Virus record (IMG/VR): IMGVR_UViG_3300022221_000009
Location: 1 to 57,503 of that record
Source: a virus
Taxonomy: Duplodnaviria; Caudoviricetes
Strand: one strand, 5' to 3'
Length of the DNA stretch: 57,503 nucleotides
The notes under the pieces are model-generated. The model did not search any database and was not told the origin of the DNA. It was given only the letters and a program-made list of their open reading frames with translations. Within the stretch, counting starts at the first letter, position 1; every line of letters starts with the position of its first letter. A program made the translations under genes and the position numbers. This document shows, in pieces, positions 1-31,100 of this stretch.

Positions 1-776
1 CTCTGCATAGGGTGTTGCTGCAACCAATTACCGAACGCATCTGATGACACAATCTCTTGTCGATCAGGATGTCTCTCGTCGATCTGCCGCAGATGGTCTG
101 CCATGGCATTACGATTTTGCATATGCCTGTCTTCAACAATCTGTTCCTGCATCGTGCTAATAACCGGAGTGATCTGGTTTTGCAGATTAGAAACCGTTTG
201 ATTGAGTGCATCGAGAATTGGTCCGACAATATCCGGATAGTCCTGCTGTGCCTTTTCAAGCTCAGCCGTCATCCGAACAACGTGTTCTTGACCGCTCTCA
301 CCCGGTCGCTGCTGGGTGATCTCGATTACGTTTGGTTGCTCACCACCACTCCCTTCACCACCTAAGTCGGTTGGTGTTTGGATTTGCGTGGCATTACCTT
401 CCTCGTTCCGACCAACTGATAGAATTGAGAGGTCACGACGCAACTTGGCATTATCTGCCGCCACTTGATCAGTGTGGGAGCGTAAATTGGCATAACTTTC
501 CTCAGTCTGTTGCCGTTTTTGTGCTTCCTCACGGTACAAGGCCTCGAAGTCAACACTGTTATCCGGATTGGGTTCAGCGGGGACTGCATGTGTGTTGAGA
601 TCTTCCGCGTTGGAAACAACCTCAACAGGCACTGCAGGCGCATCACCTTCACCGGGTACAGCTTGACCTTCTACCGGTTGCTCAGCGGGCTTATCTGGAT
701 TTCCCAGGGCTTCACCACTTTGCAATTGACTTGTCTGTTCTCTGATCTCTTTGGCTTTTTGTGCTGCGTTGGACAT
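1..776 (-). CDS. Capsid scaffolding protein, N-terminal part (runs off the window start; continues at the window end)
   Basis: Frame from ATG at 776 (MSNAAQKAKEIREQ...) with AGGAGA RBS at 781-786 reads open to base 1. Acidic, Pro-rich then coiled-coil composition; lies between portal and capsid once circularised. Confidence 0.8.
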   Translation of the reverse strand, partial: MSNAAQKAKEIREQTSQLQSGEALGNPDKPAEQPVEGQAVPGEGDAPAVPVEVVSNAEDLNTHAVPAEPNPDNSVDFEALYREEAQKRQQTEESYANLRSHTDQVAADNAKLRRDLSILSVGRNEEGNATQIQTPTDLGGEGSGGEQPNVIEITQQRPGESGQEHVVRMTAELEKAQQDYPDIVGPILDALNQTVSNLQNQITPVISTMQEQIVEDRHMQNRNAMADHLRQIDERHPDRQEIVSSDAFGNWLQQHPMQ

Positions 777-909
777 ACGTTCTCCTAACAGGGCTGACAT
801 AAATGTTTCATGTGAAACATTGACCGCTTATCTGCTCTCAGTTGGGCCAGGGCTACCTTTGGCTTATCTGGCGGTTAAAAATCACAACAGGGCTACCGTG
901 GCTTATCTG
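689..909 (-). promoter_or_regulatory. Four copies of a bipartite RNA motif CAGAUAAGC/GCCCUG around the scaffold RBS
   Basis: Plus-strand gcttatctg at 689, 826, 862, 901 and cagggc at 705, 789, 848, 888. Confidence 0.6.
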
Positions 910-926
910 CTGTGTTGAAAAGGCAT

Positions 927-953
927 AAAAAAAGGCCACTTAAAGTGACCTTT
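927..953 (-). terminator. Intrinsic terminator-like hairpin
   Basis: Minus strand AAGGTCAC-TTTAA-GTGGCCTT followed by a U-run. Confidence 0.6.
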
Positions 954-979
954 GTTTAAACCGTTTCGATTTGTGATTG

Positions 980-1273
980 TTATATGTGACCGACTCCTGA
1001 ATCATCTTGATCTGTTAGTTCTACTTCCCGGACGGGTTTTGATGCTCGACACATATTCTCAGCCTGCTCAAAGATATGACTCAAAGGTCTAAGTGCCTTA
1101 GCGGATCCTTGCGCCCGATAGACATCCTCACCAATTGCATTTTCCATTTCGTCACGAGCAGCCTTATGCAAGGTTTTTAAAAAGGTTTCTATAGTCCTCG
1201 CAGCCGATGGCATTTCTTGAGCAACCGAGTGAAAAGCCCGCGCCACATCAACATCCAATAACATCGAATTCAC
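980..1273 (-). CDS. Small hypothetical protein downstream of portal
   Basis: 97-aa ORF overlapping the portal stop; common position in podovirus head modules. Confidence 0.65.
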   Translation of the reverse strand: MNSMLLDVDVARAFHSVAQEMPSAARTIETFLKTLHKAARDEMENAIGEDVYRAQGSAKALRPLSHIFEQAENMCRASKPVREVELTDQDDSGVGHI

Positions 1274-3168
1274 ATCACACCTCCAGGCGGTAACATTGCT
1301 TGTTGCGGCGCTTGAGGCATCCCCTGCTGACCACCTGACATATCAGGCGCAACCTGGCCTGCCTTTTCTTCATCCGACACCACCATGGTGTCAGGTTTGA
1401 TATCCATACCGTCCGCAATCTCACGCATGGCCTCAGTACTCTTTAGGTCAGGATGACCGGCAAACATCTGCGCGAACTGCATCATCTTCTGGGTCTGGAT
1501 TTCTTTCGCCATGATCGCGGCAGAGCCTTTCGCCCTGACCAACATCTTGCCCAGAATCTCCCGTTTGGGGTTATGCCGCATATTCCAGTCATACATAGCT
1601 TCAATCAACGGCTCCAGGCCAAAGGCATCGATATTGCGCATCACCTTCTTGAGTGATCTGTTGGCATTGGAATTCAGGATACTCATGCCCGTGGCCGTAT
1701 CATTAGTGTTGGTCCCTTCCATGCCTGAGGTCAACGACGGCATAAAGGTTTCTTCGTCCATCAGCTGCCGGAACAGGTGGATGATCTTGATAAACTGATC
1801 TGTGTAGGCTGGTATCTCAAAAACATTGACCGCGCGCTTACTGTTATTACCGTCATGCTTCGAGTAAATCACACGCCAAGCCCGGATATCATCAACCTTC
1901 TCTCCGGGCTGTAATAAATCCATATTCACATCAAGTAATGGACCACTAGCAATCGCCGCGTTATCAATCATGATACGCGCCGCCGCGTTAATCGCGTCTT
2001 GAGAACCTTTACCCAGGTACGGGACGCCTTTCCCGAAAGGCCCAAAGCCAGCCCGTTTCACATATGGGATAATGTTGTATGGGATTCGGCCCTTGTGTTG
2101 CTTGGCCTTCAGTACAAACTGACCGCAGTACCAAATACAACCTTGTGTCTCCAGCGATTGCAATTCATACGGCATCTTGACGCCGGCATTACTTAATTCC
2201 TGTCCGGTGACCGGCCCATGGTAAACAATCACCCGATAACGCTTGCTTGCATTAGGGTCGGCATCGCCCGCGATAGTGCGTAACTCAATCTGATGCGTTT
2301 CAAGATTGGCATTACCCGCTGGAAAGTCTCGCAAGATCCGCAGGACCGAAGACGTATTGAACCCAGACTGCATTGCCAGATCCATCATTTGTGCGCGAGT
2401 CAGGAACAATTCTTCAAATATGCCGTTACCATCCTGAACACTAGTGGCTTCCATGTCCGGATAAAGATTGAAAATAGAGCAATACTTAACGTCCGGCTTA
2501 TGGCCCTGGCGCTCAATTTCGTTGGCGACCACCTCCATATTGGCATCGAACCCGACTTCCCAGTCACTCTTTTTGTCTTTGACCGTAAACGGGCCTTTCA
2601 AAGCACCTGATCCGGTAATCGTCATTTCAAGCACGGCCAGATCCAGATTTTCTGGCAAGTCAACCTCATCCAGCTGATTGCTGATTTCTGTCTTCATCGA
2701 TTCCGTGCGTACTCGCATCTCCTCGCGGATATGCTGAATAGTAATCCCCTGCTGTATCAAAAAAGGATGAAGCTCTGCATCATCCGGTATCGGCGCCGGG
2801 TCCAGGTCCCACGGCTCATCAGATAAGAAGTCCATGATCGCCGCATGCGCAGAATGAACTTTCATCTGCGTCAAACCAACCCACAATTTGGATCGACCAG
2901 CTTTAAACCGGGCCATTACGTTTGGTGAATACTCGTTGTTGTAACGACGGTAAGCATCCAACCACTCTTGTTCAAGTGTTTCACGCCGACGCCGACGTAC
3001 TTCTAATTCAGTATTTAACCTGGCGACCAAGTTACTTGGGCGGGACATTGTTTCCAGTGCTGCACCCAAGGTGTTTTCAACTTCTGCTAAATGTGCAGCA
3101 CGATTAGATAACTGATGATCACTTGGCCGGATAGCCATGGCTTGTACTTGTTGTTGTGGTACAGCCAT
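1270..3168 (-). CDS. Portal protein
   Basis: 632 aa directly after terL. Podoviral portal-like segments (GSGALKGP, FGKGV, INAAARIMIDNAAIASGP, TATGMSIL) and a Q/P-rich tail. Confidence 0.9.
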   Translation of the reverse strand: MAVPQQQVQAMAIRPSDHQLSNRAAHLAEVENTLGAALETMSRPSNLVARLNTELEVRRRRRETLEQEWLDAYRRYNNEYSPNVMARFKAGRSKLWVGLTQMKVHSAHAAIMDFLSDEPWDLDPAPIPDDAELHPFLIQQGITIQHIREEMRVRTESMKTEISNQLDEVDLPENLDLAVLEMTITGSGALKGPFTVKDKKSDWEVGFDANMEVVANEIERQGHKPDVKYCSIFNLYPDMEATSVQDGNGIFEELFLTRAQMMDLAMQSGFNTSSVLRILRDFPAGNANLETHQIELRTIAGDADPNASKRYRVIVYHGPVTGQELSNAGVKMPYELQSLETQGCIWYCGQFVLKAKQHKGRIPYNIIPYVKRAGFGPFGKGVPYLGKGSQDAINAAARIMIDNAAIASGPLLDVNMDLLQPGEKVDDIRAWRVIYSKHDGNNSKRAVNVFEIPAYTDQFIKIIHLFRQLMDEETFMPSLTSGMEGTNTNDTATGMSILNSNANRSLKKVMRNIDAFGLEPLIEAMYDWNMRHNPKREILGKMLVRAKGSAAIMAKEIQTQKMMQFAQMFAGHPDLKSTEAMREIADGMDIKPDTMVVSDEEKAGQVAPDMSGGQQGMPQAPQQAMLPPGGVM

Positions 3169-3290
3169 TAGTCGCTACCCAGCAAATCAAACGCATCGAC
3201 ACCAATACCACAGGATGCACATGGATTTTTACCTGAAGCCAATGCACCAATAGCAAAGTCACGTCCACTCCCCCACGCTATAATAGTCAA
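3168..3290 (-). pseudogene. Internally deleted HslV/proteasome-like Ntn-hydrolase remnant (40 codons)
   Basis: TTG start overlapping the terL stop: MTIIAW-GSGRDFAIGALASG...CGIGVD. Keeps the N-terminal Thr and the AWGSG motif with the middle missing. Confidence 0.6.
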
Positions 3291-4756
3291 TACCCTGCTC
3301 CTGTATCTGCTGGCTCATGCTGTCGAGAACCGACGCTACCACCGGTTAAAAATGGATTGCCGATCACTTCAAAGCGATACACAGATCGCACGTCATAACG
3401 TAGTGCATCCAGTAAGTGATCGTTTTTCTTCACAATCTTGCCTTTTTCATCTCGGTGATATAAATCGAATTCCTGTAAGGTTTGAACACAATGCCCCATA
3501 ATTTTAAGACGGCCTGTTGCGATACGCTGATAGCAGTCCAATATCCCAGCGGCGACCGAATTGTCAGCCAACTTGATATCAAGTCCGGCTTTCCCGTATT
3601 CCTTAATGACCTTCTTGCCGTCCAGTTCGTTGGACTTGTTACCGGACGGATCCCCCCAGATGGGAATATTGCCGAAGGCCTTGATGGCCGCGGCATGGTT
3701 GACCGGTGGTAACTGGCCCTGCTTGTACTCACCGTAGACGTAGATGATGTCACCCTCTTCGTCATAGCATTGCACACTAGCGGCAGTCCAATTCCAACCG
3801 AAGTCCATTCCAATCCCACGAGGCCAGTTTCTCGGTACCTGGAATGTCGGCACCACAACTTGGTCACGCACAAACGGGTAAATCTTGCCTGCACCCAGTT
3901 GTGGCCGACCATGTTCTCGGGCTTCGAGTTCATGTGGCGGCAATTCCTTGCGCATTTCTTCGACGACTGCCGGCGACAACCAAGGGTTGTCCTGCCAACC
4001 GGCCTGGATGCGATATCGGTTACTGGCATCAAACTCATCACCGAAAAACATCATGGCCACATCGGACATGCCCGACAGCGGCGTCATGGTGAGATACAGG
4101 ATCCCTTCCGTATCGGCTATACGTTGATAGCACTCGTCATAAACACTTTTCGGCGGTTCTTCGTCCAGGTGTATCCAGTGTAGCGATACCGCCTGGAACT
4201 TCTTTCGTCCTTGATCGTACGATTTAAAGTCAATCTCGGAGACACCGCCAGTCACATGCTGGATAGTGACCACATCCACCGCGTCGGCCACACCCCGCTT
4301 GCGCGTGATACTGAGTATCAGGTGTTTGGGTATTAACCCGGTGCCCCACTCACCCGGGGGACCCAGCAGGACACGCTGAATACCATCACGGGTACTTTCG
4401 GCAGTATCCGAAGCGACTCGACCGCGTGTATGCTCAGTAAACCGCCTGCCTTTCCACCACCATGGATACAGCCCGGTGGCGTGATACGCATCCTCGGCGC
4501 CACCACCAACACTTTTCCCAGTGCGGTTACCACCAAAGAAAGCGCGGACCCGGTGCAGGAATCCAGCTAAGTGAAACGCGACCTGCTTATGGTGCGGCCG
4601 GTTGAACTTCTTACCAACCGGATCGTATTGCTCCAGTTTGACCAGCTTACGGCGCTTCTTTAACGCCTCCAGCAGTACCAGCTTACGTTCAAGTGGGTTG
4701 TCCGGTAGCTGCTCGACTAAATCACGGGCGACGCTGGCCGAAACGGGGAAGTTCAT
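3287..4756 (-). CDS. terL: Terminase large subunit
   Basis: GGNRTGKS Walker A, WIHLDEEP Walker B, LTMTP, and nuclease motifs GMDFG and NDHLLDALRY. Confidence 0.95.
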   Translation of the reverse strand: MNFPVSASVARDLVEQLPDNPLERKLVLLEALKKRRKLVKLEQYDPVGKKFNRPHHKQVAFHLAGFLHRVRAFFGGNRTGKSVGGGAEDAYHATGLYPWWWKGRRFTEHTRGRVASDTAESTRDGIQRVLLGPPGEWGTGLIPKHLILSITRKRGVADAVDVVTIQHVTGGVSEIDFKSYDQGRKKFQAVSLHWIHLDEEPPKSVYDECYQRIADTEGILYLTMTPLSGMSDVAMMFFGDEFDASNRYRIQAGWQDNPWLSPAVVEEMRKELPPHELEAREHGRPQLGAGKIYPFVRDQVVVPTFQVPRNWPRGIGMDFGWNWTAASVQCYDEEGDIIYVYGEYKQGQLPPVNHAAAIKAFGNIPIWGDPSGNKSNELDGKKVIKEYGKAGLDIKLADNSVAAGILDCYQRIATGRLKIMGHCVQTLQEFDLYHRDEKGKIVKKNDHLLDALRYDVRSVYRFEVIGNPFLTGGSVGSRQHEPADTGAGY

Positions 4757-4765
4757 TTGTTCCCC

Positions 4766-5392
4766 TTAATTCAATCTTCCACGATGCTCATCCAGTTCCT
4801 TTTCAGCTTCGGCAATCAGCTTTTCAATTTCATCCTCGGGCAGATCAGAAGCCAACCGATCGGTAATCGATGTCGGCTTACCTTCGGCCAGCTGTGAGGC
4901 ATGGTGCACATCACGAATGACCCGAGCGGCTTCGCCTGGACCCACTGTTGATATCTGGCCCACCATTTCCTTGGCAACCACATCATACTTCTCAATTATG
5001 TATCCATTAACCAAACCATCTTTTACGGAATTTAGGGCCAGCATGATGGTGCCCCACGCCTCCTCAACAAACCCTTCACGCTTGGCGGCACGAATCTTTT
5101 GCAACTCATCCATGGGTATTTCATCTTTGATTCGTTGAATCTGCTCGCGGGTAAGACCGGATATGCGGGAAATTTCAGCAATATTGTCAGAGATACCAAA
5201 TAAGGCACGAACCAACTCCTCTTCCTTGGGGCCGGCATGCTGTCCTTTCTTACGCTGCACTGGCTTGATATCAGCTAATTCAGTAATGGGGCGAATGGCT
5301 TGTTTCTTAGCAACTTTCTTCTTAGCCACCTTTTTTTTGGTATGCGCGCGCGTAGAAGTTTGTTTTTTCTGGGGTTTCTTCTTCGCAGCCAT
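4766..5392 (-). CDS. Terminase small subunit (putative)
   Basis: Directly upstream of terL; Lys-rich N-terminus and HTH-like NIAEISRISGLTREQIQRI. Confidence 0.7.
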   Translation of the reverse strand: MAAKKKPQKKQTSTRAHTKKKVAKKKVAKKQAIRPITELADIKPVQRKKGQHAGPKEEELVRALFGISDNIAEISRISGLTREQIQRIKDEIPMDELQKIRAAKREGFVEEAWGTIMLALNSVKDGLVNGYIIEKYDVVAKEMVGQISTVGPGEAARVIRDVHHASQLAEGKPTSITDRLASDLPEDEIEKLIAEAEKELDEHRGRLN

Positions 5393-5540
5393 AGTTTAGT
5401 TGTCCGCAATTTTAGCGACGTTGGGTAACAAGTTCATCACAGTAATCTCTTACCTCGCAGTCTAAGTTTCCAAATTTGATACGCATATCAATCCTCAATT
5501 AAATTCCGCACCCACAGCCGCAGTTCCACATCTCCAGGCC

Positions 5541-5572
5541 AAAAAAAACCCCGTCCATTTGAATGGCGGGGC
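5541..5572 (-). terminator. Intrinsic terminator in the late leader (tR'-like)
   Basis: Minus strand GCCCCGCCATTCAAATGGACGGGG followed by U8, upstream of terS; fits Q-type antitermination. Confidence 0.65.
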
Positions 5573-5932
5573 TTTAAAACACAGCTAGATGGTCTGAACC
5601 TAACTATTGTTGACGACGATTCGGTGATGAGCAAGTTGTGGTATCAACCAGGAGACCCAACCATGGACCTCCGTAGTCACCTTGCGCAGCATACAGATAA
5701 ATCCTAAAGTAGATTAAACAATAAATCAACCAAATGTAATCTGAAGTAGTATTGTTTGTGATACTTAAAAAGGGTGCCCTGCATCCTGCAAGGCTTGGGA
5801 ATGGGTACAACTTCATGTTGTATTTCTGTCTTGGGAGAAACAGAAATAATAATTTATCACAACAAATTTGTTTGTGTAGCTTATTTTTTCTGGGTATCCG
5901 GATTTTATGATTGATATATGATTTATAGTCGC

Positions 5933-6133
5933 CTACAACAGCCTGTTTTTCTCGTCAATCAACAGTCGATTGATGAGGTCTGTCTCTGTCACATCATCCC
6001 CTAATTTGAGGCAGATTTTTAAAGCCTCGTTGGCCTCAGGCGAGAGCCTCCAGGATTTGCGGGCGCCGCCCGCGTGTTTGAGCGCGGCGATAGAGTCGTT
6101 TACTCGCTGCGTGGCTGTGCGTGGTTTAGTCAT
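5933..6133 (-). CDS. Small ribbon-helix-helix-type regulator (candidate Aca)
   Basis: 66 aa; strand RKSWRLS then two helices (PEANEALK..., TETDLINRLL). Last gene of the cassette; its stop codon lies within the left IR. Confidence 0.6.
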   Translation of the reverse strand: MTKPRTATQRVNDSIAALKHAGGARKSWRLSPEANEALKICLKLGDDVTETDLINRLLIDEKNRLL

Positions 6134-6639
6134 TTAGTTGGCTCCAGCGAGCGAAACGCCACACGCTCCATTTTGCGCACCTCGTCGGCCATTTCATCCG
6201 GCACGCAGACAGTGACACATTGACACTCGCGCGGACAGCCCACAATGCCGCGATGTTCGCGCAGGATTTTGTAACACCAGGTCCGCACGTCCTCGCGTTT
6301 TTTGCCTGTGATGTTAGCAACGTGTTTGTGACTGTGCCCCTCCACCAGCACCAGCCGCGCCGCCTCCAGGCTGGCGGGCGCGATCTTGGTGTAGCTGGCG
6401 GCAAGGTCAAATTGCTCGGGGGTCATGACTCGATATTCAAACATACCCTTAATAAATCCATTCAAGATTTCATCCGGCATTTCGGCCGCTCTGTCATTAT
6501 CTAAATCTGTTCGCCAGCCTTTAATTTTTGAATTCGTTGCAACAATGCCGCCGAGTTTGAATATCTCAATCGTTAAGTCTCTATCTCTACCGACGCCCGT
6601 CAAGTGCAGCAATTTTTTAAATATCTCGTTGTTGTTCAT
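6130..6639 (-). CDS. DUF1456/YehS-like domain fused to a KorA/TrfB (Aca4-like) HTH repressor
   Basis: N-part MNNNEIFKKL...DEILNGFIKG resembles DUF1456. C-part MTPEQF...EAARLVLVEG...VTVCVPDEMADEVRK follows the KorA/TrfB pattern. Confidence 0.7.
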   Translation of the reverse strand: MNNNEIFKKLLHLTGVGRDRDLTIEIFKLGGIVATNSKIKGWRTDLDNDRAAEMPDEILNGFIKGMFEYRVMTPEQFDLAASYTKIAPASLEAARLVLVEGHSHKHVANITGKKREDVRTWCYKILREHRGIVGCPRECQCVTVCVPDEMADEVRKMERVAFRSLEPTK

Positions 6640-6658
6640 TATCTGACCCCGCTTACTT

Positions 6659-6686
6659 ATTAGAAGCTGCCTATGCGGCAGCGTAA
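6659..6686 (-). CRISPR. Solitary type I-F CRISPR repeat-like unit #2 (not an array)
   Basis: Minus strand TTACGCTGCCGCATAGGCAGCTTCTAAT; the CTGCC-GCATA-GGCAG-CTT core matches the Cas6f hairpin of I-F repeats. Confidence 0.7.
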
Positions 6687-6712
6687 ATTATCTTTGTATG
6701 AGTCAGTTAGTC

Positions 6713-6955
6713 TTACAAAAGATTCTTTATTTCAAGAACATACCTGATCAAATAATGCTCTAAAGTTTCGCCGTTTTCGTCTTCTTTATCGTCCGGACAA
6801 CGAAACCATACCGCATTAACTGTTTTATACTCTACATCTTCTTCTTTTGACGCCCAATTGAATAAAACTCTTTTGAAACCCTGGTTGTTAAATTCTGCAC
6901 ATTCAAGCATAAATGAATGTGCATCGCTTTCGTTTTTAAAATTTAAGACTGGCAT
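6713..6955 (-). CDS. Small acidic protein, anti-CRISPR candidate (80 aa)
   Basis: Start re-called to ATG 6955 (MPVLNFKN...) with GGAGA RBS at 6964-6968; lies between two I-F repeats, upstream of Aca-like genes. Confidence 0.6.
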   Translation of the reverse strand: MPVLNFKNESDAHSFMLECAEFNNQGFKRVLFNWASKEEDVEYKTVNAVWFRCPDDKEDENGETLEHYLIRYVLEIKNLL

Positions 6956-6975
6956 TATAAGTTTCTCCGTTTCAG

Positions 6976-7005
6976 TCCCGGCATGACCCCGGCCGGGAAT
7001 CGGGG
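6976..7005 (-). promoter_or_regulatory. 5'-UTR H-type pseudoknot, copy 2
   Basis: CCCCG-AT-TCCCGGC-CGGGG-TCAT-GCCGGGA immediately upstream of the RBS. Confidence 0.6.
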
Positions 7006-7033
7006 TTTTTAAGCTGCCTGCACGGCAGTAAAT
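7006..7033 (-). CRISPR. Solitary type I-F CRISPR repeat-like unit #1 (Racr candidate)
   Basis: Minus strand ATTTACTGCCGTGCAGGCAGCTTAAAAA; 24/28 identical to the I-F repeat GTTCACTGCCGTACAGGCAGCTTAGAAA. Confidence 0.8.
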
Positions 7034-7057
7034 TTGTTTATTGATACAACACACTAA

Positions 7058-7345
7058 TTAGCTCACATGCACAAAATAAATAGTTTCTCGTGTGAAATCC
7101 TCTCTAACTTCGGATGTGTCGTTATAATCTTGATCTATGTCATCGCCAGATCCGATGTGGTCAGAATAGCCCACGCCATGAATTTCCAGCATTACCTCGT
7201 TTTGTATATCATCAAAACACTGAGCAATAAAATCGCTGTTTTCAAAACCGCTGCCCGCGCCGTGCGGTACAAGCGGTGCTTTAATTGCGGAATCAAAGTA
7301 TTCTTGACACCGCTCAACCATTAACTCTTTTGCATTCGTGCTCAT
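7058..7345 (-). CDS. Small acidic protein, anti-CRISPR candidate (95 aa)
   Basis: First gene after the strong promoter; AGGAGA RBS; D/E-rich. Confidence 0.65.
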   Translation of the reverse strand: MSTNAKELMVERCQEYFDSAIKAPLVPHGAGSGFENSDFIAQCFDDIQNEVMLEIHGVGYSDHIGSGDDIDQDYNDTSEVREDFTRETIYFVHVS

Positions 7346-7363
7346 TAATGTATCTCCTATCGG

Positions 7364-7394
7364 TCCCAGCGTCAGCCCCGGCTGGGAATCGGGG
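7364..7394 (-). promoter_or_regulatory. 5'-UTR H-type pseudoknot, copy 1
   Basis: CCCCG-AT-TCCCAGC-CGGGG-CTGAC-GCTGGGA; A-U replaces the G-C pair of copy 2. Confidence 0.6.
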
Positions 7395-7421
7395 GAGCTA
7401 AATATCTCAGCTCATTGGTAC

Positions 7422-7450
7422 AGTGTAGTCGCCTACGGTCTATTTGTCAA
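7422..7450 (-). promoter_or_regulatory. Near-consensus sigma70 promoter of the cassette
   Basis: TTGACA (7445-7450), 17-bp spacer, TACACT (7422-7427); overlapped by the quasi-palindrome GTAGTCGCCTAC. Confidence 0.8.
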
Positions 7451-7482
7451 CTATAAAATCCGGATACCTTTTTTCTCATCCT

Positions 7483-7740
7483 TTAATTAAACACCATCAC
7501 CCAGGCCGCACGCAGCCGCTGTCGAAAGGTCATCCCTCCTATCAGCTGCGATCCAAGCGACATTAAATGCACAGCCATGACTGGCAAAGGCGTCCCTCGC
7601 TTGGTCTTGAAACCGAAATACTTTAATTGCTTACCGTCGTGGTAGATTATCTGCAACACCTCAACGCCAGTCTGCCGGTGCTTATCCAGCTTGAAGCCTT
7701 TAAACACCGGGCCTTTATAATTTGATTTTTTTTTGCTCAC
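7483..7740 (-). CDS. Hypothetical protein
   Basis: Basic ORF; GTG start coupled to the upstream stop. Confidence 0.5.
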   Translation of the reverse strand: MSKKKSNYKGPVFKGFKLDKHRQTGVEVLQIIYHDGKQLKYFGFKTKRGTPLPVMAVHLMSLGSQLIGGMTFRQRLRAAWVMVFN

Positions 7741-7931
7741 ATCTCTACTCCAGGAAACCAACGGTGATGATCACCAAGCCGGCGTTGAGTCTCCGGCAAC
7801 ACCTTCTCTTCCATCATTTCATAGTCGTTCAGGGCTTCCAGTACTCGTTCTTCTAACTCTTTTTGTGCCTGAAATTTTTCTATATTTCGTTTAGCTACTC
7901 CCAATTGCTGTTCGACCAGGGTTTCAAACAT
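7737..7931 (-). CDS. Probable C-terminal fragment of the split J-domain gene
   Basis: Frame stays open upstream to about 8005 (IRAIERYKGLKNKVRKKSEGPN-M). Confidence 0.45.
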   Translation of the reverse strand: MFETLVEQQLGVAKRNIEKFQAQKELEERVLEALNDYEMMEEKVLPETQRRLGDHHRWFPGVEM

Positions 7932-7999
7932 GTTTGGTCCTTCTGATTTCTTGCGGACTTTGTTCTTTAGTCCCTTATAGCGTTCAATTGCTCGGATGC

Positions 8000-8278
8000 T
8001 TAAAGAGTCTCTTTCTGGATAGCTATACCAAACAAAGCAATCAACTTATTCCTGACCTCAACCCAACCATCAGGGATATCACTCTCCCCGGTTTCATCAT
8101 ATTTAGCGCGTCGATTAACATCGTACAGAATTTCATAGGCATTATTCAGTTCGGCAAAAGTGTCCTTATCGCCACCGCGATCCGGGTGACACCGCATCGC
8201 CAGCCGTTTGTAGGCCGTCTTGATTTCTGCTTGAGTTGCATCCTTAGACACACCCAATACTTCATACGGATTTTGCAT
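8000..8278 (-). CDS. DnaJ/J-domain protein (possibly truncated)
   Basis: [15 protein letters not shown]...[15 protein letters not shown]...NAYEILYD; intact HPD motif. Confidence 0.85.
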
Positions 8279-8687
8279 TTTGTTTTTTCTCCTGTGTATA
8301 AAGCCAGACATCGATCCAGCGTAGGCCGTCTTTGACTTTGGCTCTAAATGTTGATTTTGATATTCCAAACCACGTGAGGTTATTAGATACACCTTCTAAT
8401 CCGATATAGTTTGCAATCAGGATTTGTGCTAATTCCTTGTAACGAGGATGGTCGCTCATTTCATGCATAGCTTTTTCTATTTGTTCAGCATCATCATTGA
8501 CAGGTGGTAACTTCTGGCCTTTGCTGCGAATCATAACGCCGCCCATTTCGATTAATTCATATTCCAGCGTTTTAGATGCATATCCGTTTAATTCTCCATC
8601 CTCACGCCGACAGGCCCAGTTCGCCCACATCTTAACCAACATATCGATGTATTGGAGCCGCTCGTCATCGTACTGGCGCATGCTCAC
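8262..8687 (-). CDS. Antiterminator Q-like late regulator
   Basis: [12 protein letters not shown]-terminus and C-terminal HTH-like [11 protein letters not shown]; near the end of the delayed-early arm. Confidence 0.55.
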
Positions 8688-25314: not shown

Positions 25315-26694
25315 ATGCCAGAACTAACCATCAGCCAATACCAGGGAGTCCTGCGCGAAGCAGGCAAACTGGTACCATCTGCCCGAACGATTAAGCGGGA
25401 GATCGCGTCTGGCCGACTGGGGGGCTACAAGAAACCGGGTCCAACTGGGCGATATGTTGTTGATCCTGATCGCCCGATCTCGGATACTACCCAACCAGAG
25501 GGAATGGGAATGGGTGGAAATCGACTACGGATCCATGATGGGTTGCCGCCTAACTTATATAAGTATAAGAAGAGCGATACTTGGTATTTTAGGTACAAAA
25601 TACCGGAACATATTAAAAATATTCCGGAAAATGAACGCTGGCAACCTTTAGGATCAAACGAATCAAAGGCCATCGATGCGGCCAATCAATTTAACCAGAA
25701 GTTTGGTAAAGGGTCTGATTTAGTGGCCCAGGTATACGCACGTCTGGACTCTATTGATCGCCATTTCGGGAGATATGTACAGAAGTTTCTGACGCAGATC
25801 CTCCCCGCTCGACGTGTTGGTAAGCGTAAAGAGCCTATGAGTCCGAACACTATTACTGAATACACCCGAATTTGTAATGACTTTCTATCGATCTGGAATG
25901 AAAAATACTTTCCGGAAATTACCCAGGCCATCATAGCTGAATACCTGAATAAGCAGGTATCTGCAGCAGTTTATAACAAGCACCGTACTGTTTTAGGGTT
26001 AATTTGGAAATATGCGATCAGCGATGGATTGATTGAAGATAAAGTTAATTTACCATTAGCTATTGTGAAAAGGGATGGAGAAAAGACAAAACGTCACCGA
26101 CTTACATTGGAAGGCTACCAAGCAATATTTGAACATGCTTCCTTTGCTGTTCAATCAGCCATGGAGTTATCGATCAATTGTATTCAAAGGCGATCTGATA
26201 TTCGGATATGGAAATTTGATGATACATTGGATAACGGCATGGTTCGTCGAATTGTTTCAAAAACAAAATCACGAGGAATGGAAGCCTATATAATGATTCC
26301 GATCACGCTTCCTTTGATCCATTCTGAACGAGGATGTAAAACACTCAAAGAATTAATTAATAGCTGTCGTGATAATGTGCCCTCACCTTATCTGGTTCAC
26401 CATAAGCCATACCGTCGAAAGCTATCTAAACAGAAAGACCACTGGACACAATTAAGCAAAGAAGAAATATCAAATGGCTTTGCTGATGCCAGAGAGAGCA
26501 GTGCGTTTTATCAAAAACTACCACCGGAAGAACGTCCCACATTACATGAATGTATTGCCCTTGGTGAACATCTTATGGGAAATGCAGGCTATGATGAAAA
26601 GTGGATACAGCTGCTCCGAGGTCATCAAAAAATTGAGACAACCCGACTTTACCTGGAGGACCATGAATGGACAGTGATACCGATGCCATGTTAA
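25315..26694 (+). CDS. int: Tyrosine integrase with N-terminal excisionase-like extension
   Basis: Arm-binding LPPNLY...YFRYK; catalytic QRRSD, KTK, HECI and LRGH...TRLY; adjacent to attP. Confidence 0.88.
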   Translation: MPELTISQYQGVLREAGKLVPSARTIKREIASGRLGGYKKPGPTGRYVVDPDRPISDTTQPEGMGMGGNRLRIHDGLPPNLYKYKKSDTWYFRYKIPEHIKNIPENERWQPLGSNESKAIDAANQFNQKFGKGSDLVAQVYARLDSIDRHFGRYVQKFLTQILPARRVGKRKEPMSPNTITEYTRICNDFLSIWNEKYFPEITQAIIAEYLNKQVSAAVYNKHRTVLGLIWKYAISDGLIEDKVNLPLAIVKRDGEKTKRHRLTLEGYQAIFEHASFAVQSAMELSINCIQRRSDIRIWKFDDTLDNGMVRRIVSKTKSRGMEAYIMIPITLPLIHSERGCKTLKELINSCRDNVPSPYLVHHKPYRRKLSKQKDHWTQLSKEEISNGFADARESSAFYQKLPPEERPTLHECIALGEHLMGNAGYDEKWIQLLRGHQKIETTRLYLEDHEWTVIPMPC

Positions 26695-27928: not shown

Positions 27929-28195
27929 ATGACTTGTACCGGCTTAACAATATTTCAGGTTGAGATAGTCAACTTCATTGCCATGGCGATCACCATGGGG
28001 CCAGCCTTATTGGCCGGCCTTTATGTGTTTGCCCGAACTACCCGGAAAGTGGAAAGCCAGTACCAGACCCGGCATGGCTCGATGGAAAGACGAATCGCGC
28101 TAAACTTTGCCCTGATACCGGGCTTGATCGCCTTTGTATTATCCGCGGCCTTTCTTTCACTCCTGACCCAGCACCTTTTTTGCGTGTTCCCGTAG
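27929..28195 (+). CDS. Small two-TM membrane protein
   Basis: Two hydrophobic helices; convergent with the giant gene. Confidence 0.5.
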   Translation: MTCTGLTIFQVEIVNFIAMAITMGPALLAGLYVFARTTRKVESQYQTRHGSMERRIALNFALIPGLIAFVLSAAFLSLLTQHLFCVFP

Positions 28196-31100
28196 ATTCT
28201 CCATTTTCCGTTTGATCACCTGCTTCTGTTTCAGGTATTCCTGACCATCAATCAGATTCCGTTTTTTGTCCGACTCCAGCTGGAACATTTGACTACTTAG
28301 TGCACGCTGGATTTGATCGATATCCCGCGCATGCCAGGACAGACCGTATTTCACGTCATGGGGGGCCAGCTTGACACCGGCAGAGGATAAGAAAGCATAG
28401 CCGATCCCGTACTCACGGCCCAGCATGTCACGGCCACCCTTGATCGACCGTTCAATCTTTTGCCAGTACCAGGACTCCGGTATCCAGGGTGCTGCCGGCA
28501 TCCACGATCGCCACGCCCAGCCACCCAGCTTGGCTGCAGACTCCCCAGTGGTATCGATTTTCGAATCGACGATCTCCTTGCCGGTGAAGGCCTGCTTGTT
28601 CAAAGCCAATTCCCCAGCCAACATCAACGGGCCACTTAGCTGCAATGGCGCCGGTATCGGGAGTGCCCACTGACCCTGATTCATATCAAAGACATCCCCG
28701 GCCGGTATCCAGCGACGGATATCCAGGAAGACCGGGTTACCGTGTTCATCGTGCCAGGGCATGCGCATCATGCGAGGCACACCCGGCAGCCAAGTATTCC
28801 CTTGTGCTTGTTCACGCATGGAGCGGCGTTCCTCGTCCTCATCACCGGGCGATAGCATATAACCCAGGGCATTCACCATATAGGCAATCGTGGTGTACTT
28901 GGCCAGCTTCCACGGCCGTTCCGCAATGGATTTGGCGATCACCGGCACGGCCCGGTAGGTGTAGGCGATAAAGGGCAGCACAGTCCCGCGCATGGCGTTG
29001 ACCCAGGGTGCCCGAATATCGTAATTCAGGAACTGTTCACGCGCCGCACGGGCAGAGACATCCGGTTGATCACCGAGGGATAGACGGCGCATATAGGTGG
29101 CCATACGGAAAATCTCATCTTCCATCGAGTACCAGTCAATCATCCGTTTATCAGCCTTACCAACCCATTTCCAGATTGATTCGTACATCTGACTGAGGTT
29201 ATTCAGGCGACCCTCTGCCCCGCTGGCCTCGTCCAGATTCTGGCTTTTCAACTCTTCCAGGAGCGGGTCGAGGATCTGCCGGCGCACTTCCTGATCCACA
29301 AAGTTACTGCCAAACACCCCGTGCTCAACAGCATCCCGGTAGTCCTTGGTTTCATGGCGCAGGGCATACCAACCACGATACAGATCCTGCCAGCGAATAT
29401 CGGCCATATCCATAAAGATGAAGTTGGACATGATGTTATTCATGTGCACCACTGGGTTGCGGGCGGTCTTGTTCAGTTTCCACTGGGTCAGCAGCTTGCG
29501 CCACAAGCCCGGGACCTGGAGCCGACGCAGTTCATTCAGGTCACGCCAGATTTCCGCACGCACATACTTGCCGGCCAGAGGACCCCAGAGGCGTTTCGTT
29601 GTCCCGGGTAAGGTGGATTCTGGGATCTGCACCCATTCATAACCCACATACGTGGCCATGGCCCCCTTGGGGGTGGTGATGGTACCGGAATCGGGCGGTC
29701 CTTCTTCGGACCATACCCAGTTGGGGTTTTTGGCAATATCCGAGTAGAACCGTGCCGTGGACACATCATTGGCCAGCAACATATAGGACTTGGCCAGGAC
29801 ATACCGTGCATCGAGGATTTCCCCCATGGATTCACGCTCAGACTGCGTAAAGTCACGCCAGAGGGTGATCTTGTTGCCCTTGTAGCCGCGGGCCTCCCAG
29901 ATACCCTTGTTGTCCCAGCCCTTGTACATATTGGGCAGAGGCACGTCTGCAGGCCAGTAGCGACGGTCCAGGACACGCGGCTTGCGACCGGGCTCACCCA
30001 TTCCTTCGAAGGTTTCTGTGCCCTGCCCGACAGCCTGCACCTTGTCCAGCACGATAAACTTCATCCCCTGCAGGGAGCCGTCCGTCTTGTTTTTGAATTT
30101 CTGACGGCCCCACCAGTCAACCGGAACCGCATCAAGCAATTTGTCCTGCTCGATATTCATATTCATGCCCCGCTGGCGGAGCTGACTGCCAATCATCTTG
30201 GCTCGGCGGTTGGATAGCTGGTTATTGACCCAACGGCCCAAGCCGGTCTGTTCAATCTCATGCTTTTTGTACGCGCGGTGCAACCAGGTCCCCCGGTGGC
30301 GTTCATAGGTTTCCGCATCCAGCCAACCCAGTTCCACCAGTTCATGCCCCAGCTGGTCCAGGGCCTGACGAACCGGTGCCGCGATATCGTTCCACTCGGA
30401 ATCGGGAATTTGTTCACCTTCCAAAATGGCTTTGAAGACCTTGGCCTCTTTGACATCCATGCCCCGGTTCATCATGGTATTAATGAAATCAGCCCCTTCC
30501 ATCTGGATCCGACGCTTCTCGGCCTCACGCTCGAAGTCACGCTGTTTGTACTCTTCGGTCAGACCGTATCGATCGATCAAACCCGCACGTAAATGTTCAA
30601 GGAAAGGATTCATCCACCCCATATAGCCATCGGTATTGAACTTGCGATCCATCACCAGTTTTTCCAGTTGGTTATAGCCCTTCTTGGTTTTATCGGGCAC
30701 ACCGGCAATGTCGAAGGCCTTGCGGAAGACGCGATCAATTGGCTGACCTTTGCCCAGGCGGTCGAGGAGTTTCTTCTGGTTATCGGGGAGATCGTCGCGA
30801 TGGTCTTTGGAGATAGGGTCACCCAAGGAGAACATGACTTGACCTTGTTCCAGAACGGCGTCACGCATTTTTTTTGAGATATCAATGGAATGGGTAACCA
30901 AAGGATCTAATTGGTTTTCGTTTTTATTTACGAAAGCATCTGCTTCTTCTTCTGAGGCAAAAGTATCAAGGATATTTTCATCCATATCTACTACATGCCA
31001 TTCTCCCCGATTGTTACCCATAGCGAAGAGGCCTTTTAGGTATTTACGTTTACCAATATTAGTTTTACCAACTTTAGCCCCCCATTTTTTGACATACTTG

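What the first reader, a model, noticed from the sequence alone, without database searches (positions are those of the whole stretch)
5884..7476. Transposase-less mobile cassette delivering a putative combined RNA + protein anti-CRISPR operon
Seen: 44-bp inverted repeats (GGTATCCGGATTTTAT... at 5893 and 7468) with TTTTTTCT duplicated outside both ends. Inside, one minus-strand operon: promoter, pseudoknot, 95-aa acidic gene, I-F repeat, pseudoknot, 80-aa acidic gene, I-F repeat, DUF1456-KorA fusion, RHH gene. No transposase is evident in the genome. Known: several IS families (IS1, IS1595, IS256) have GG-initial ends and 8-9-bp target duplications; acr genes are small and sit upstream of aca repressors. 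Inference: a non-autonomous IS-derived cassette that moves an anti-CRISPR kit between phages. I do not know of this combination being described.
Basis: partly seen in the sequence, partly recalled or inferred. Interest (0 to 1): 0.92.

Follow-up and report, generated by a model that had tools for sequence, protein, structure and literature searches.

The report
Transposase-less ISL3 cassette carrying anti-CRISPR-like operon
A 1.6-kb gene cassette in a temperate phage is bounded by the end sequences of an ISL3-type insertion sequence but has no transposase, and it carries CRISPR-repeat mimics, two small acidic proteins and regulators that together look like an anti-CRISPR kit.

Summary
A perfect 16-bp inverted repeat (5893-5908 / 7453-7468) brackets one minus-strand operon, and TTTTTTCT lies outside both ends.

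The key new result is that these ends are ISL3-family (ISPpu12-like) terminal inverted repeats. The left end, GGGTATCCGGATTTTATGATTGAT, matches 21 of 24 bases at each end of a pYR1 element that encodes a DDE_Tnp_ISL3 transposase. The same motif is multi-copy in a MAG, where it sits just upstream of ISL3 transposase genes. ISPpu12 is reported to make 8-bp duplications (PMC3735179). Three other transposase-less elements carry the same ends with different cargo. The window has no ISL3 transposase.

The "IS-derived non-autonomous cassette" reading is therefore supported, but the family is ISL3, not IS1, IS1595 or IS256. Movement between phages is not shown: I found one copy only and no empty site.

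One type I-F repeat mimic passes Rfam's threshold; the second is only the hairpin. The acidic proteins match no known Acr. Combined acr-racr operons are already published (PMC10651486). Anti-CRISPR function is inferred, not shown.

The parts
5776..5794 (-). Terminator-like hairpin plus T-run, about 100 nt downstream of the cassette's left end. Probably ends both the phage transcript and the cassette operon. It lies outside the element.
   Evidence: 8-bp stem, 5 GC pairs, tail ACCCTTTTTA. No terminator-like site on the minus strand lies between 5933 and 5892.
5884..5891 (.). Left copy of the 8-bp target-site duplication TTTTTTCT
5892..5915 (+). Left terminal inverted repeat, 24 bp, GGGTATCCGGATTTTATGATTGAT (ISL3 / ISPpu12-like type)
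   Evidence: 21 of 24 identical to each end of the pYR1 ISL3 element. 24 of 24 to a site in MAG G002 and 23 of 24 to one in G001.
5924..5937 (.). Near-palindrome TATAGTCGCCTACA, the second copy of the operator-like site. It overlaps the stop codon of the 66-aa ORF.
   Evidence: core TAGTCGCCTAC occurs exactly twice in the window
5933..6133 (-). 66-aa basic ORF (pI 9.43), last gene of the operon. Possibly a small DNA-binding protein. The RHH fold is unverified.
   Evidence: no family match
6130..6639 (-). 169-aa regulator: DUF1456-like N-terminal half fused to a KorA/TrfB-type HTH half (Aca-like position)
   Evidence: Domains. The two halves occur as separate proteins elsewhere. A contig of run X2 has 50 extra letters at 6428|6429, just before the ATG of M72.
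6659..6686 (-). Second, degenerate type I-F repeat-like unit (hairpin CUGCC-GCAUA-GGCAG at 6667-6681, followed by CUU)
   Evidence: (22.4 bits, below gathering)
6713..6955 (-). 80-aa acidic orphan ORF (pI 4.68), candidate Acr
   Evidence: only itself found; pLDDT 62
6976..7005 (-). Structured leader 2: 7-bp hairpin UCCCGGC/GCCGGGA, with a possible second stem CCCCG/CGGGG giving an H-type pseudoknot. It lies between the I-F repeat and the RBS of the 80-aa ORF.
   Evidence: (D2)
7006..7033 (-). Solitary type I-F CRISPR repeat unit (Racr-like), AUUUACUGCCGUGCAGGCAGCUUAAAAA
   Evidence: CRISPR-DR4, 36.7 bits against gathering 35; the only Rfam match over gathering in the window
7058..7345 (-). 95-aa acidic ORF (pI 4.15), predicted three-helix protein, candidate Acr. 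It belongs to a small family.
   Evidence: pLDDT 89.7; 8 representative clusters in 1.84 billion
7364..7394 (-). Structured leader 1: same element as leader 2, with stem UCCCAGC/GCUGGGA. It lies upstream of the RBS of the 95-aa ORF.
7422..7450 (-). Sigma-70-type promoter TTGACA-17-TACACT. Its -35 hexamer lies in the inner part of the right terminal repeat.
7424..7437 (.). Near-palindrome TGTAGTCGCCTACG in the promoter spacer and -10 region (operator-like)
7446..7468 (-). Right terminal inverted repeat, GGTATCCGGATTTTATAGTTGAC (23 nt). It lacks the outermost G of the family consensus.
7469..7476 (.). Right copy of the 8-bp target-site duplication TTTTTTCT

Best explanation
The segment 5892-7468 is a mobile insertion cassette (MIC): a transposase-less derivative of an ISL3-family, ISPpu12-like insertion sequence. 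An ISL3 transposase supplied in trans, probably from the host while the phage was a prophage, inserted it into an AT-rich intergenic site of a temperate phage and duplicated 8 bp (TTTTTTCT).

Its cargo is one operon, read from a promoter whose -35 hexamer lies inside the right terminal repeat. The order is: structured leader, 95-aa acidic protein, type I-F CRISPR repeat mimic, structured leader, 80-aa acidic protein, degenerate I-F hairpin, DUF1456-KorA regulator, 66-aa basic protein.

[quoted passage not shown] The repeat mimics would be bound and cut by host Cas6f and would draw Cas proteins away from real crRNAs, as shown for RacrIF1. The acidic proteins are candidate protein anti-CRISPRs. 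The regulator(s) would repress the operon through the palindrome in the promoter, as Aca proteins do.

Shown: the anatomy, the homology of the ends to ISL3 ends, the duplication, the absence of a transposase, the repeat match and the domain content. Inferred: that it transposed as a unit with this cargo, that it can still move, and every step of the anti-CRISPR function.
For: Ends.
- blastn of the left end against plasmids led to pYR1. There, two copies of a 2985-bp element [HTH_20 regulator, ArsP permease, transposase with DDE_Tnp_ISL3 3.7e-67, Zn_ribbon_ISL3 and HTH_Tnp_ISL3] are each bounded by GGGTATCCGGAATTTCTGGTTGAT and GGGTATACGGATTTAATGGTTGAT. Each is 21 of 24 identical to the window's left end.
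- In MAG G001 the motif occurs 20 times at up to 3 mismatches, against 0 for the reversed control. G002 has 3 and G003 has 4.
- On contigs C59 and C80 of G001 the motif lies just upstream of open frames with DDE_Tnp_ISL3 (5.1e-58 and 1.3e-62).
- Flanks of 13 ends are 5-8 of 8 A/T.

Duplication.
- The 8-bp duplication is exact.
- ISPpu12 has imperfect 24-bp inverted repeats and makes 8-bp duplications (PMC3735179, passages).
- In pYR1, the composite of the two elements around a resistance gene is flanked by GGAAAAAT on both sides.

Transposase-less relatives with other cargo.
- pKD02, locus L016 4007-6003: cation-efflux protein plus MerR regulator.
- L014 3676-5410: CpXC protein. Flanks agree at 6 of 8.
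- L022 579-1523: no clear ORF. Flanks agree at 7 of 8.
- No PF01610 match in the window.

Cargo.
- Rfam CRISPR-DR4 over gathering.
- The Cas6f hairpin with its C-G closing pair is intact in both units and occurs nowhere else in the window. That C6-G20 pair is needed for RacrIF1 activity (PMC10651486, passage).
- Both small proteins are acidic.
- A regulator sits at the 3' end of the operon, and a palindrome lies in the promoter.
- Independent parallel: in plasmid pAsa_2939, an I-F solitary repeat (38.9 bits) sits in the leader of an operon that also holds a DUF1456 protein (50.7% identity) and a small HTH-like ORF, with a repeated palindrome at its promoter.
- A 42% relative of the 95-aa protein lies next to a small RHH-like ORF (RHH-like by my reading; no family search run) in another phage-like contig.
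Against: - Only one copy of the cassette was seen.
- No close relative of the phage exists in the collections, so no empty site could be found.
- Both runs that hold the phage hold the cassette. They are kept as contigs, which drop rare variants.
- The end pattern occurs in 0 other IMG/VR contigs. At up to 2 mismatches it occurs in 1 of 401 genomes of one class, and that one is the genome used as the centre.
- The right end lacks the outermost G and differs from the left at 3 of the next 23 positions. The cassette may therefore no longer be mobile.
- The cassette's G+C (46.1%) does not differ from the phage's (46.6%).
- Neither small protein resembles a solved structure, including the anti-CRISPRs in the PDB, by sequence, by profile (both proteins by sequence; 95-aa family by profile) or by fold (95-aa protein only). 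There is no PHROG match.
- The 80-aa ORF has no relatives at all and folds with low confidence, so it may not be a gene.
- The second repeat unit is below Rfam's threshold.
- The host, and whether it has a type I-F system, are unknown.
- 3 of 5 DUF1456 loci examined have no CRISPR-repeat match.
Confidence: 0.6

Rival explanations
1. The cassette is an ISL3-derived insertion cassette, but the cargo is not an anti-CRISPR kit. On this reading the I-F repeat units are processing or regulatory sites. Either Cas6f cuts the polycistronic RNA into separate messages, or the RNA between the two units acts as a crRNA-like regulator that redirects the host complex. The small proteins would serve another anti-defence role or an unrelated one.
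For: - The two units flank a whole cistron. The first unit would leave an almost canonical 8-nt handle (CUUAAAAA) on the downstream RNA and the second a 3' hairpin, which is the outline of a crRNA.
- Phage crRNA-like regulatory RNAs are reported. I saw the search listing and abstract only of bioRxiv 10.1101/2024.10.29.618823.
- The small proteins match no known Acr.
Against: - The stretch between the units is 319 nt, about ten times a I-F spacer (32 nt; recalled, from no call), and it encodes a protein.
- Solitary repeats beside small acidic genes and a regulator are the published context of Racrs (PMC10651486).
- I did not search for a target complementary to the leader.
Confidence: 0.22
2. 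The inverted repeats are not transposon ends. They would be operator or recombination sites of the phage, or chance, and the TTTTTTCT flanks would be a coincidence of T-rich intergenic DNA.
For: - The 16-bp repeat only just exceeds the shuffle maxima of 12-15.
- TTTTTTCT is over-represented in the window, at 11 copies.
- A second, operator-like palindrome is also present at both ends.
- The right repeat abuts the promoter.
Against: - The 24-bp end is 21-24 of 24 identical to ends of elements that encode ISL3 transposases and to multi-copy repeats in unrelated genomes.
- The duplication length equals the ISL3 length.
- The joint chance of the repeat plus the flank match is about 1e-4 or less (my multiplication: 0 of 30 shuffles reach 16: ~2e-3).
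Confidence: 0.05
3. The operon is native to this phage lineage, and the two ends are remnants of two separate ISL3-type insertions or of a decayed full-length IS. On this reading the present cargo was never moved as a unit.
For: - G+C of the cassette as a whole equals that of the phage, while G+C inside it is a mosaic of 34-59%.
- The right end is imperfect.
- Only a single copy is known.
Against: - An exact 8-bp duplication directly outside both ends is what one transposition of the whole unit leaves. Two separate insertions would leave different flanks.
- No remnant of an ISL3 transposase lies inside.
Confidence: 0.1

Closest known systems
ISPpu12 and related ISL3-family 'transporter' insertion sequences (for example the pYR1 element)
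   Same: - 24-bp imperfect terminal inverted repeats starting GGGTAT.CGGA and ending TG.TTGAT.
- 8-bp target duplication.
- AT-rich targets.
- Passenger genes, including a regulator, next to one end (PMC3735179 and PMC4133298 passages).
   Different: No transposase gene. All interior genes are unrelated to the tnpA, tnpR, lspA and czcD set. The host replicon is a phage.
Mobile insertion cassettes (MICs), such as MIC231 of Bacillus cereus and the qnrD cassettes of Proteeae
   Same: IS-type terminal repeats around passenger genes, with no transposase, presumed to be moved in trans. I saw the PMC4133298 introduction passage and only the title and abstract listing of PMC3913671.
   Different: Those derive from other IS families (IS231 is in the IS4 family, recalled from memory) and carry metabolic or resistance genes on chromosomes or plasmids. 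This one is ISL3-derived, carries counter-defence-like cargo and sits in a phage. Its mobility has not been shown.
RacrIF1 and acr-racr operons (Camara-Wilpert et al. 2023, PMC10651486)
   Same: - A solitary type I-F repeat unit in a viral genome with the Cas6f hairpin and its closing C-G pair intact.
- Co-transcription with small candidate acr genes, as for acrIC5-racrIC1.
   Different: - Two units in one operon, placed between cistrons rather than directly behind a promoter.
- The RNA between them would carry both a 5' handle and a 3' hairpin, whereas RacrIF1's product lacks a 5' handle.
- Each acidic ORF is preceded by a conserved structured leader.
- No activity data.
acr-aca loci (anti-CRISPR genes followed by an autorepressor that binds inverted repeats in the promoter)
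   Same: Small acidic genes come first and an HTH regulator last. A palindrome overlaps the promoter spacer and -10 region.
   Different: The regulator is a KorA/TrfB-type HTH fused to DUF1456. I found no paper that links DUF1456 to anti-CRISPR: 0 papers hold both terms. Homology to the named Aca families could not be tested, because no library of them was on hand.
MITEs in viral genomes (PMC11602168) and mycobacteriophage MPME elements (PMC3029335, listing only)
   Same: Non-autonomous transposable elements that reside in phage genomes.
   Different: Those are short and carry at most one small ORF. This element is 1.58 kb and carries a four-gene operon with its own promoter.

Membership tests
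ISL3-family non-autonomous element (MIC type) | Terminal inverted repeats homologous to those that bound elements encoding a DDE_Tnp_ISL3 transposase | tested here: met
   21 of 24 to both ends of the pYR1 element, whose transposase scores 3.7e-67 on PF01610. In G001 the same motif lies directly upstream of ISL3 transposase frames on two contigs.
ISL3-family non-autonomous element (MIC type) | 8-bp target-site duplication | tested here: met
   TTTTTTCT at 5884-5891 and 7469-7476, an exact match. The 8-bp length for ISPpu12 comes from PMC3735179 passages.
ISL3-family non-autonomous element (MIC type) | No transposase between the ends; passenger genes instead | tested here: met
   No PF01610 match in six frames of the whole window. 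All four ORFs between the ends were scanned.
ISL3-family non-autonomous element (MIC type) | Evidence of movement: further copies, an empty site, or a polymorphic insertion | tested here: not met
   - One copy in the window.
- 0 other IMG/VR contigs with the end pattern.
- No relatives in the phage or plasmid collections.
- No joint across the cassette in contigs of the two runs.
These searches need near-exact matches, and contigs hide rare variants.
ISL3-family non-autonomous element (MIC type) | Mobilisation in trans by a cognate transposase | not testable with these tools
   Needs a transposition assay.
Racr (RNA anti-CRISPR, solitary repeat unit), type I-F | A single unit matching the repeat of a CRISPR subtype, in a virus, outside any array and away from cas genes | tested here: met
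   CRISPR-DR4 at 36.7 bits against gathering 35, at 7006-7033. It is the only such match over gathering in the window. The second unit scores 22.4 bits, below gathering.
Racr (RNA anti-CRISPR, solitary repeat unit), type I-F | Intact Cas6f hairpin with the closing C6-G20 pair | tested here: met
   CUGCC-N5-GGCAG is present in both units. The need for C6 and G20 comes from a PMC10651486 passage.
Racr (RNA anti-CRISPR, solitary repeat unit), type I-F | Transcribed at a high level from a promoter just upstream | tested here: inconclusive
   Both units lie inside the operon, 390 and 740 nt from the predicted promoter. No RNA run holds the sequence.
Racr (RNA anti-CRISPR, solitary repeat unit), type I-F | Inhibits the cognate CRISPR-Cas system; host carries that subtype | not testable with these tools
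   The host is unknown: the window is an uncultivated virus record from sediment metagenomes.
Anti-CRISPR proteins (Acr) | Homology to a validated Acr | tested here: not met
   - No PDB sequence, profile or fold match.
- No BFVD fold match at E <= 0.001.
- No PHROG match.
No dedicated Acr database was on hand, so unsolved Acr families were not covered.
Anti-CRISPR proteins (Acr) | Small, often acidic protein in an operon with an aca-type regulator on a mobile element | tested here: met
   95 aa with pI 4.15 and 80 aa with pI 4.68, upstream of a KorA-type HTH. This is context, not proof.
Aca (anti-CRISPR-associated regulator) | HTH protein encoded at the 3' end of the acr operon, with inverted-repeat operator(s) in the acr promoter | tested here: met
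   KORA domain 3e-10. Palindrome TGTAGTCGCCTACG lies over the spacer and -10 region. Binding was not tested.
Aca (anti-CRISPR-associated regulator) | Homology to a named Aca family | not tested
   No Aca library was on hand. Nearest solved relatives are KorA-domain proteins (7bbq, 1.7e-5) and TrfB.
MITE | Short (tens to a few hundred bp), non-coding, multi-copy | tested here: not met
   1577 bp, four ORFs, single copy.
   No ISfinder library. The match to ISL3-type ends makes these unnecessary.

The most novel reading that the evidence does not exclude
The two Cas6f hairpins are not mere decoys. By flanking the 80-aa cistron they would make host Cas6f carve out an RNA with a true 5' handle (CUUAAAAA), a pseudoknotted leader, a 243-nt coding region and a 3' hairpin.

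This would be a giant crRNA look-alike that is also a messenger. It could nucleate a complete but oversized, useless Cascade: Cas8f-Cas5f at the handle and a runaway Cas7f filament along the RNA. It could at the same time make translation of the second anti-CRISPR depend on the presence of Cas6f, that is, on a host that actually has a type I-F system.

The whole sensing and decoy kit, with DUF1456-KorA as a new Aca-type regulator, would travel on an ISL3-derived cassette that any resident ISPpu12-like transposase can move between prophages, plasmids and chromosomes.
Probability: 0.1. Interest if true: 0.85.

Novelty: new variant of a known kind. Interest (0 to 1): 0.66.

Why it matters
Anti-CRISPR genes are known to sit in variable islands of phages and plasmids, but how they get from one element to another is mostly put down to recombination. 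This is a concrete, sequence-level case in which a complete, self-regulated counter-defence-like operon lies between bona fide insertion-sequence ends with a fresh-looking target duplication. That suggests that host transposases can shuttle such kits in trans.

Insertion sequences are rare in phages (PMC11602168, introduction passage). A transposase-less cassette avoids the cost of carrying a transposase.

The locus also offers new test material:
- two untested candidate Acr proteins;
- a two-unit Racr arrangement that would yield a handle-bearing RNA;
- a conserved structured leader;
- DUF1456, seen twice next to I-F solitary repeats, as a possible marker for such loci.

The ISL3-type end motif could serve as a search handle for further cargo cassettes.

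Tried and rejected
Relatives of the phage, sought for an empty site:
- megablast and blastn of 5000-8500 against the phage collection: no match.
- Large terminase in IMG/VR: best relatives at 33% and 29% identity, too far for site comparison.
- A right-flank protein in IMG/VR: none.

Sequencing runs. Two sediment-metagenome runs hold the stretch, and both may be the source. No RNA holder was listed. Laid contigs cover the cassette without a joint across it. Contigs cannot show rare excision products.

The ends elsewhere:
- The 16-mer in IMG/VR: 6 single hits that do not extend, taken as chance.
- The 20-base pattern in GTDB genomes: 4 single hits. I first took these for chance or a coding motif. 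I later understood them as family members, once the plasmid hits showed the ISL3 link.
- The right end against the phage collection and the left end against the phage collection: only weak short hits at E >= 0.1.
- The whole cassette against plasmids at E <= 0.01: none.

Leader core pattern in IMG/VR: 0 hits. Rfam at E <= 10 gave only a 20-bit match of leader 2 to CRISPR-DR18 (gathering 50). I rejected this as evidence for a second repeat type.

Proteins:
- The regulator and its halves in IMG/VR: none.
- The regulator in the phage collection: none.
- The 95-aa protein in the phage and plasmid collections: none.
- The 80-aa protein: only itself, and no usable Atlas hit.
- The two acidic ORFs are unrelated to each other.

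Literature. 0 papers hold 'anti-CRISPR' and 'DUF1456'. 4 papers hold anti-CRISPR, terminal inverted repeats, target site duplication and phage; 3 hold anti-CRISPR and ISL3. All are unrelated by title and abstract. One more search gave nothing relevant. Supplementary files were not consulted. The Racr candidate lists in the supplements of PMC10651486 may include this IMG/VR record.

Full report
WHAT THE WINDOW IS

The window is an uncultivated virus record of 57,503 bp, estimated 92% complete. It encodes a large terminase, an SU10-type portal, a YqaJ recombinase, two adenine methylases and a lambda-type integrase at 25315-26694, so it is a temperate tailed phage. It has no close relatives in the phage collection. 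In IMG/VR the best terminase relative is 33% identical.

THE OBSERVATION

- The perfect inverted repeat is 16 bp, at 5893-5908 and 7453-7468. The longer 45-nt arms are 73% complementary.
- The additional similarity comes mainly from a 14-bp near-palindrome, 15 nt inside each 16-mer. Its core, TAGTCGCCTAC, occurs exactly twice in the window.
- TTTTTTCT lies directly outside the right repeat, and one base (G 5892) away from the left one.
- Among the 15 longest of the 16 perfect inverted repeats of 12 bp or more within 5 kb in the window, this one is the longest and the only one with a flanking direct repeat longer than 4 bp. 30 shuffles reached at most 15 bp.
- TTTTTTCT is common in this phage, with 11 copies on the + strand, so the flank match alone has a chance of about 2e-3.

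WHAT THE ENDS ARE

This is the main result.

A blastn of the left end against plasmids gave many weak hits, with E-values from 0.09 to 4. I would have dismissed them, but the two I opened both lay beside transposon genes.

In Yersinia ruckeri plasmid pYR1, two copies of a 2985-bp element are each bounded by GGGTATCCGGAATTTCTGGTTGAT on one side and GGGTATACGGATTTAATGGTTGAT, inverted, on the other. The element encodes an ArsR-type regulator, a permease and a 425-aa protein that matches DDE_Tnp_ISL3 (3.7e-67), Zn_ribbon_ISL3 and HTH_Tnp_ISL3. Each of these ends is 21 of 24 identical to the window's left end, GGGTATCCGGATTTTATGATTGAT (5892-5915).

This also explained an earlier puzzle. The 20-base pattern had hit four GTDB genomes, and three of the hits were identical to the window over 22-24 bases with no similarity on either side. 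Searching those three genomes whole gave the following:
- 20 copies of the motif at up to 3 mismatches in one Bacillota MAG (G001);
- 3 copies in G002 and 4 in G003;
- 0 for the reversed control in all three.

On two contigs of G001 the motif lies about 150 nt upstream of open frames that carry DDE_Tnp_ISL3. The eight bases outside 13 such ends are 5-8 of 8 A/T.

Published passages state that ISPpu12, an ISL3-family element, has imperfect 24-bp inverted repeats, makes 8-bp duplications, carries passenger genes, works in alpha-, beta- and gammaproteobacteria, and can move as a composite (PMC3735179; PMC4133298).

The window's ends, the 8-bp duplication and the T-rich target therefore all fit one family. 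The window itself has no ISL3 transposase in any frame.

OTHER TRANSPOSASE-LESS ELEMENTS WITH THESE ENDS

- In Alteromonas plasmid pKD02, the ends enclose only a cation-efflux gene and a MerR regulator (1997 bp).
- In a Georgfuchsia MAG, they enclose a CpXC-domain protein and a membrane protein (1.7 kb). The flanks agree at 6 of 8.
- In G001, a 945-bp element has no clear ORF. Its flanks agree at 7 of 8.

Cassettes of this kind are called mobile insertion cassettes (PMC4133298 introduction). The window's element is one more of them, with different cargo.

LIMITS OF THE MOBILITY CLAIM

I found one copy only.
- The end pattern occurs in no other IMG/VR contig.
- At up to 2 mismatches it occurs in 1 of 401 genomes sampled from one class, and that one is the centre genome itself.
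- Both sequencing runs that hold the phage hold the cassette. They are kept as contigs, which cannot show rare excision.
- The right end lacks the outermost G of the family and differs from the left end at 3 further positions.

An insertion event is well supported. Present-day mobility, and transfer between phages, are not shown.

THE CARGO

Reading the minus strand from the right end:

- Promoter. A TTGACA-17-TACACT promoter lies at 7450-7422. Its -35 hexamer falls in the conserved inner part of the terminal repeat, and the palindrome covers the spacer and -10 region.
- Leader 1 (7394-7364). A structured element upstream of the first ORF.
- 95-aa ORF. It is acidic (pI 4.15) and predicted with high confidence (pLDDT 89.7) to be a three-helix protein. 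It belongs to a small family: 8 representative clusters among 1.84 billion. The family has no match to solved structures by sequence, profile or fold, and none to PHROGs. A 42% relative lies next to a small RHH-like ORF and a phage protease-like gene (both by my reading; no family search was run on them) on a metagenome contig, without repeats, leaders or ISL3 ends.
- First I-F repeat unit (7033-7006). It passes Rfam's curated threshold for the type I-F repeat family and is the only such match in the window.
- Leader 2 (7005-6976). It shares a 19-nt core with leader 1.
- 80-aa ORF. It is acidic (pI 4.68) and has no relatives. Its fold prediction has low confidence (pLDDT 62).
- Second I-F unit. 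It keeps the hairpin and CUU but little else (22.4 bits).
- 169-aa regulator and 66-aa basic ORF.

The leaders. Ordinary folding gives a 7-bp hairpin. The additional CCCCG/CGGGG pairing that would make an H-type pseudoknot is geometrically possible, with loops of 2 and 4-5 nt. One pair of the hairpin differs between the copies on both sides, A-U against G-C. No Rfam family matches. The pseudoknot is therefore a reasonable but unproven reading.

The regulator. It has a KorA/TrfB HTH half (3e-10) and a DUF1456-like half (25.0 bits against a cut-off of 27). Elsewhere the two halves are separate proteins. A KorA-only protein begins exactly at the equivalent of M72, and DUF1456 proteins continue past the junction into a zinc ribbon. 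A contig of run X2 carries 50 extra letters two bases upstream of that ATG. G+C also jumps from about 38% to 58% there. The fusion therefore looks like a recent 50-bp deletion variant.

WHY ANTI-CRISPR IS THE BEST READING OF THE CARGO

- Solitary repeat units in viruses have been shown to act as RNA anti-CRISPRs. RacrIF1 is bound and cut by Cas6f and supports an aberrant Cas7f filament. The closing C-G pair is required, and both units here keep it.
- acr genes are enriched within 1 kb of such units, and one acr-racr pair is co-transcribed (PMC10651486, passages).
- The order here, small acidic genes first and an HTH regulator with a promoter palindrome last, is the usual acr-aca layout (established knowledge).
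- An independent parallel exists in Aeromonas salmonicida plasmid pAsa_2939. A near-canonical I-F solitary repeat (38.9 bits) lies in the leader of an operon that includes the closest plasmid relative of the DUF1456 half (50.7% identity) and a small HTH-like ORF, behind a promoter with a repeated palindrome.
- Against over-reading this parallel: three more distant DUF1456 loci on Pasteurellaceae plasmids have no repeat match. DUF1456 thus lay beside a I-F unit in 2 of the 5 loci I examined.

None of this is a functional test. The host is unknown.

WHAT IS AND IS NOT NEW

Acr plus Racr in one operon is published. Transposase-less IS-derived cassettes are a known kind. Non-autonomous elements in phages are known.

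In the searches named under Tried and rejected, I found nothing in print on a counter-defence-like operon carried between insertion-sequence ends in a phage, nor on a link between DUF1456 and anti-CRISPR loci.

Two details differ from the described Racrs. There are two units that flank a cistron, so the RNA between them would carry both a 5' handle and a 3' hairpin. Conserved structured leaders also precede the acidic ORFs.

VERDICT

- The 'IS-derived non-autonomous cassette' inference is supported and sharpened to the ISL3 family.
- The anti-CRISPR function is plausible but untested.
- The claims of phage-to-phage movement and of an undescribed RNA-plus-protein combination are not supported.
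- I rate it a new variant of known kinds, of solid interest to people who work on mobile elements and counter-defence.

Noticed in passing
window 6428|6429 (inside the 169-aa ORF): A contig of run X2 has 50 extra letters exactly here, 2 nt upstream of the ATG of M72. In that population the DUF1456 and KorA parts are probably two genes, and the window's fusion is a deletion variant. G+C also jumps from about 38% to 58% at this point. The 50 letters were not shown.
   Followed up: partly
L038 (Aeromonas salmonicida plasmid pAsa_2939) 2380-3484: A near-canonical type I-F solitary repeat (2437-2464, 38.9 bits) lies in the leader of an operon: a 157-aa ORF, a DUF1456 protein and a 72-aa HTH-like ORF. 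The palindrome TGCGAATCGCA occurs twice around the promoter. This looks like another racr/acr-aca-type locus, and it links DUF1456 to I-F repeat mimics.
   Followed up: partly
L014 3676-5410; L016 4007-6003; L022 579-1523: Three further transposase-less elements are bounded by the same ISL3-type ends, with other cargo: a CpXC protein plus a membrane protein; a cation-efflux protein plus MerR; and no clear ORF. Two of them have near-matching 8-bp flanks.
   Followed up: partly
L017 (pYR1) 133-6993: Two identical ISL3 elements flank an annotated trimethoprim-resistance gene. The whole composite is flanked by GGAAAAAT on both sides, so it probably transposed as a composite.
   Followed up: no
L015 63-556: A 42% relative of the 95-aa protein follows a 55-aa RHH-like ORF and precedes a terminator and a phage protease-like gene. 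The family thus recurs beside small regulators in phage-like DNA, here without repeats or IS ends.
   Followed up: partly
window 5393-5883: A stretch of about 490 nt between the cassette and the 208-aa gene upstream of the terminase has no convincing ORF. It holds a good terminator-like hairpin (5794-5776, minus strand).
   Followed up: no
window 28157-41077: A single 4306-aa ORF on the minus strand among the structural genes. I did not examine it.
   Followed up: no
window 5911-5939: The left terminal repeat carries the mirror image of the promoter (TTGATA-17-TACAAC), facing inward on the + strand. It lacks the final T of the -10 hexamer. It may be a decayed or weak antisense promoter.
   Followed up: no
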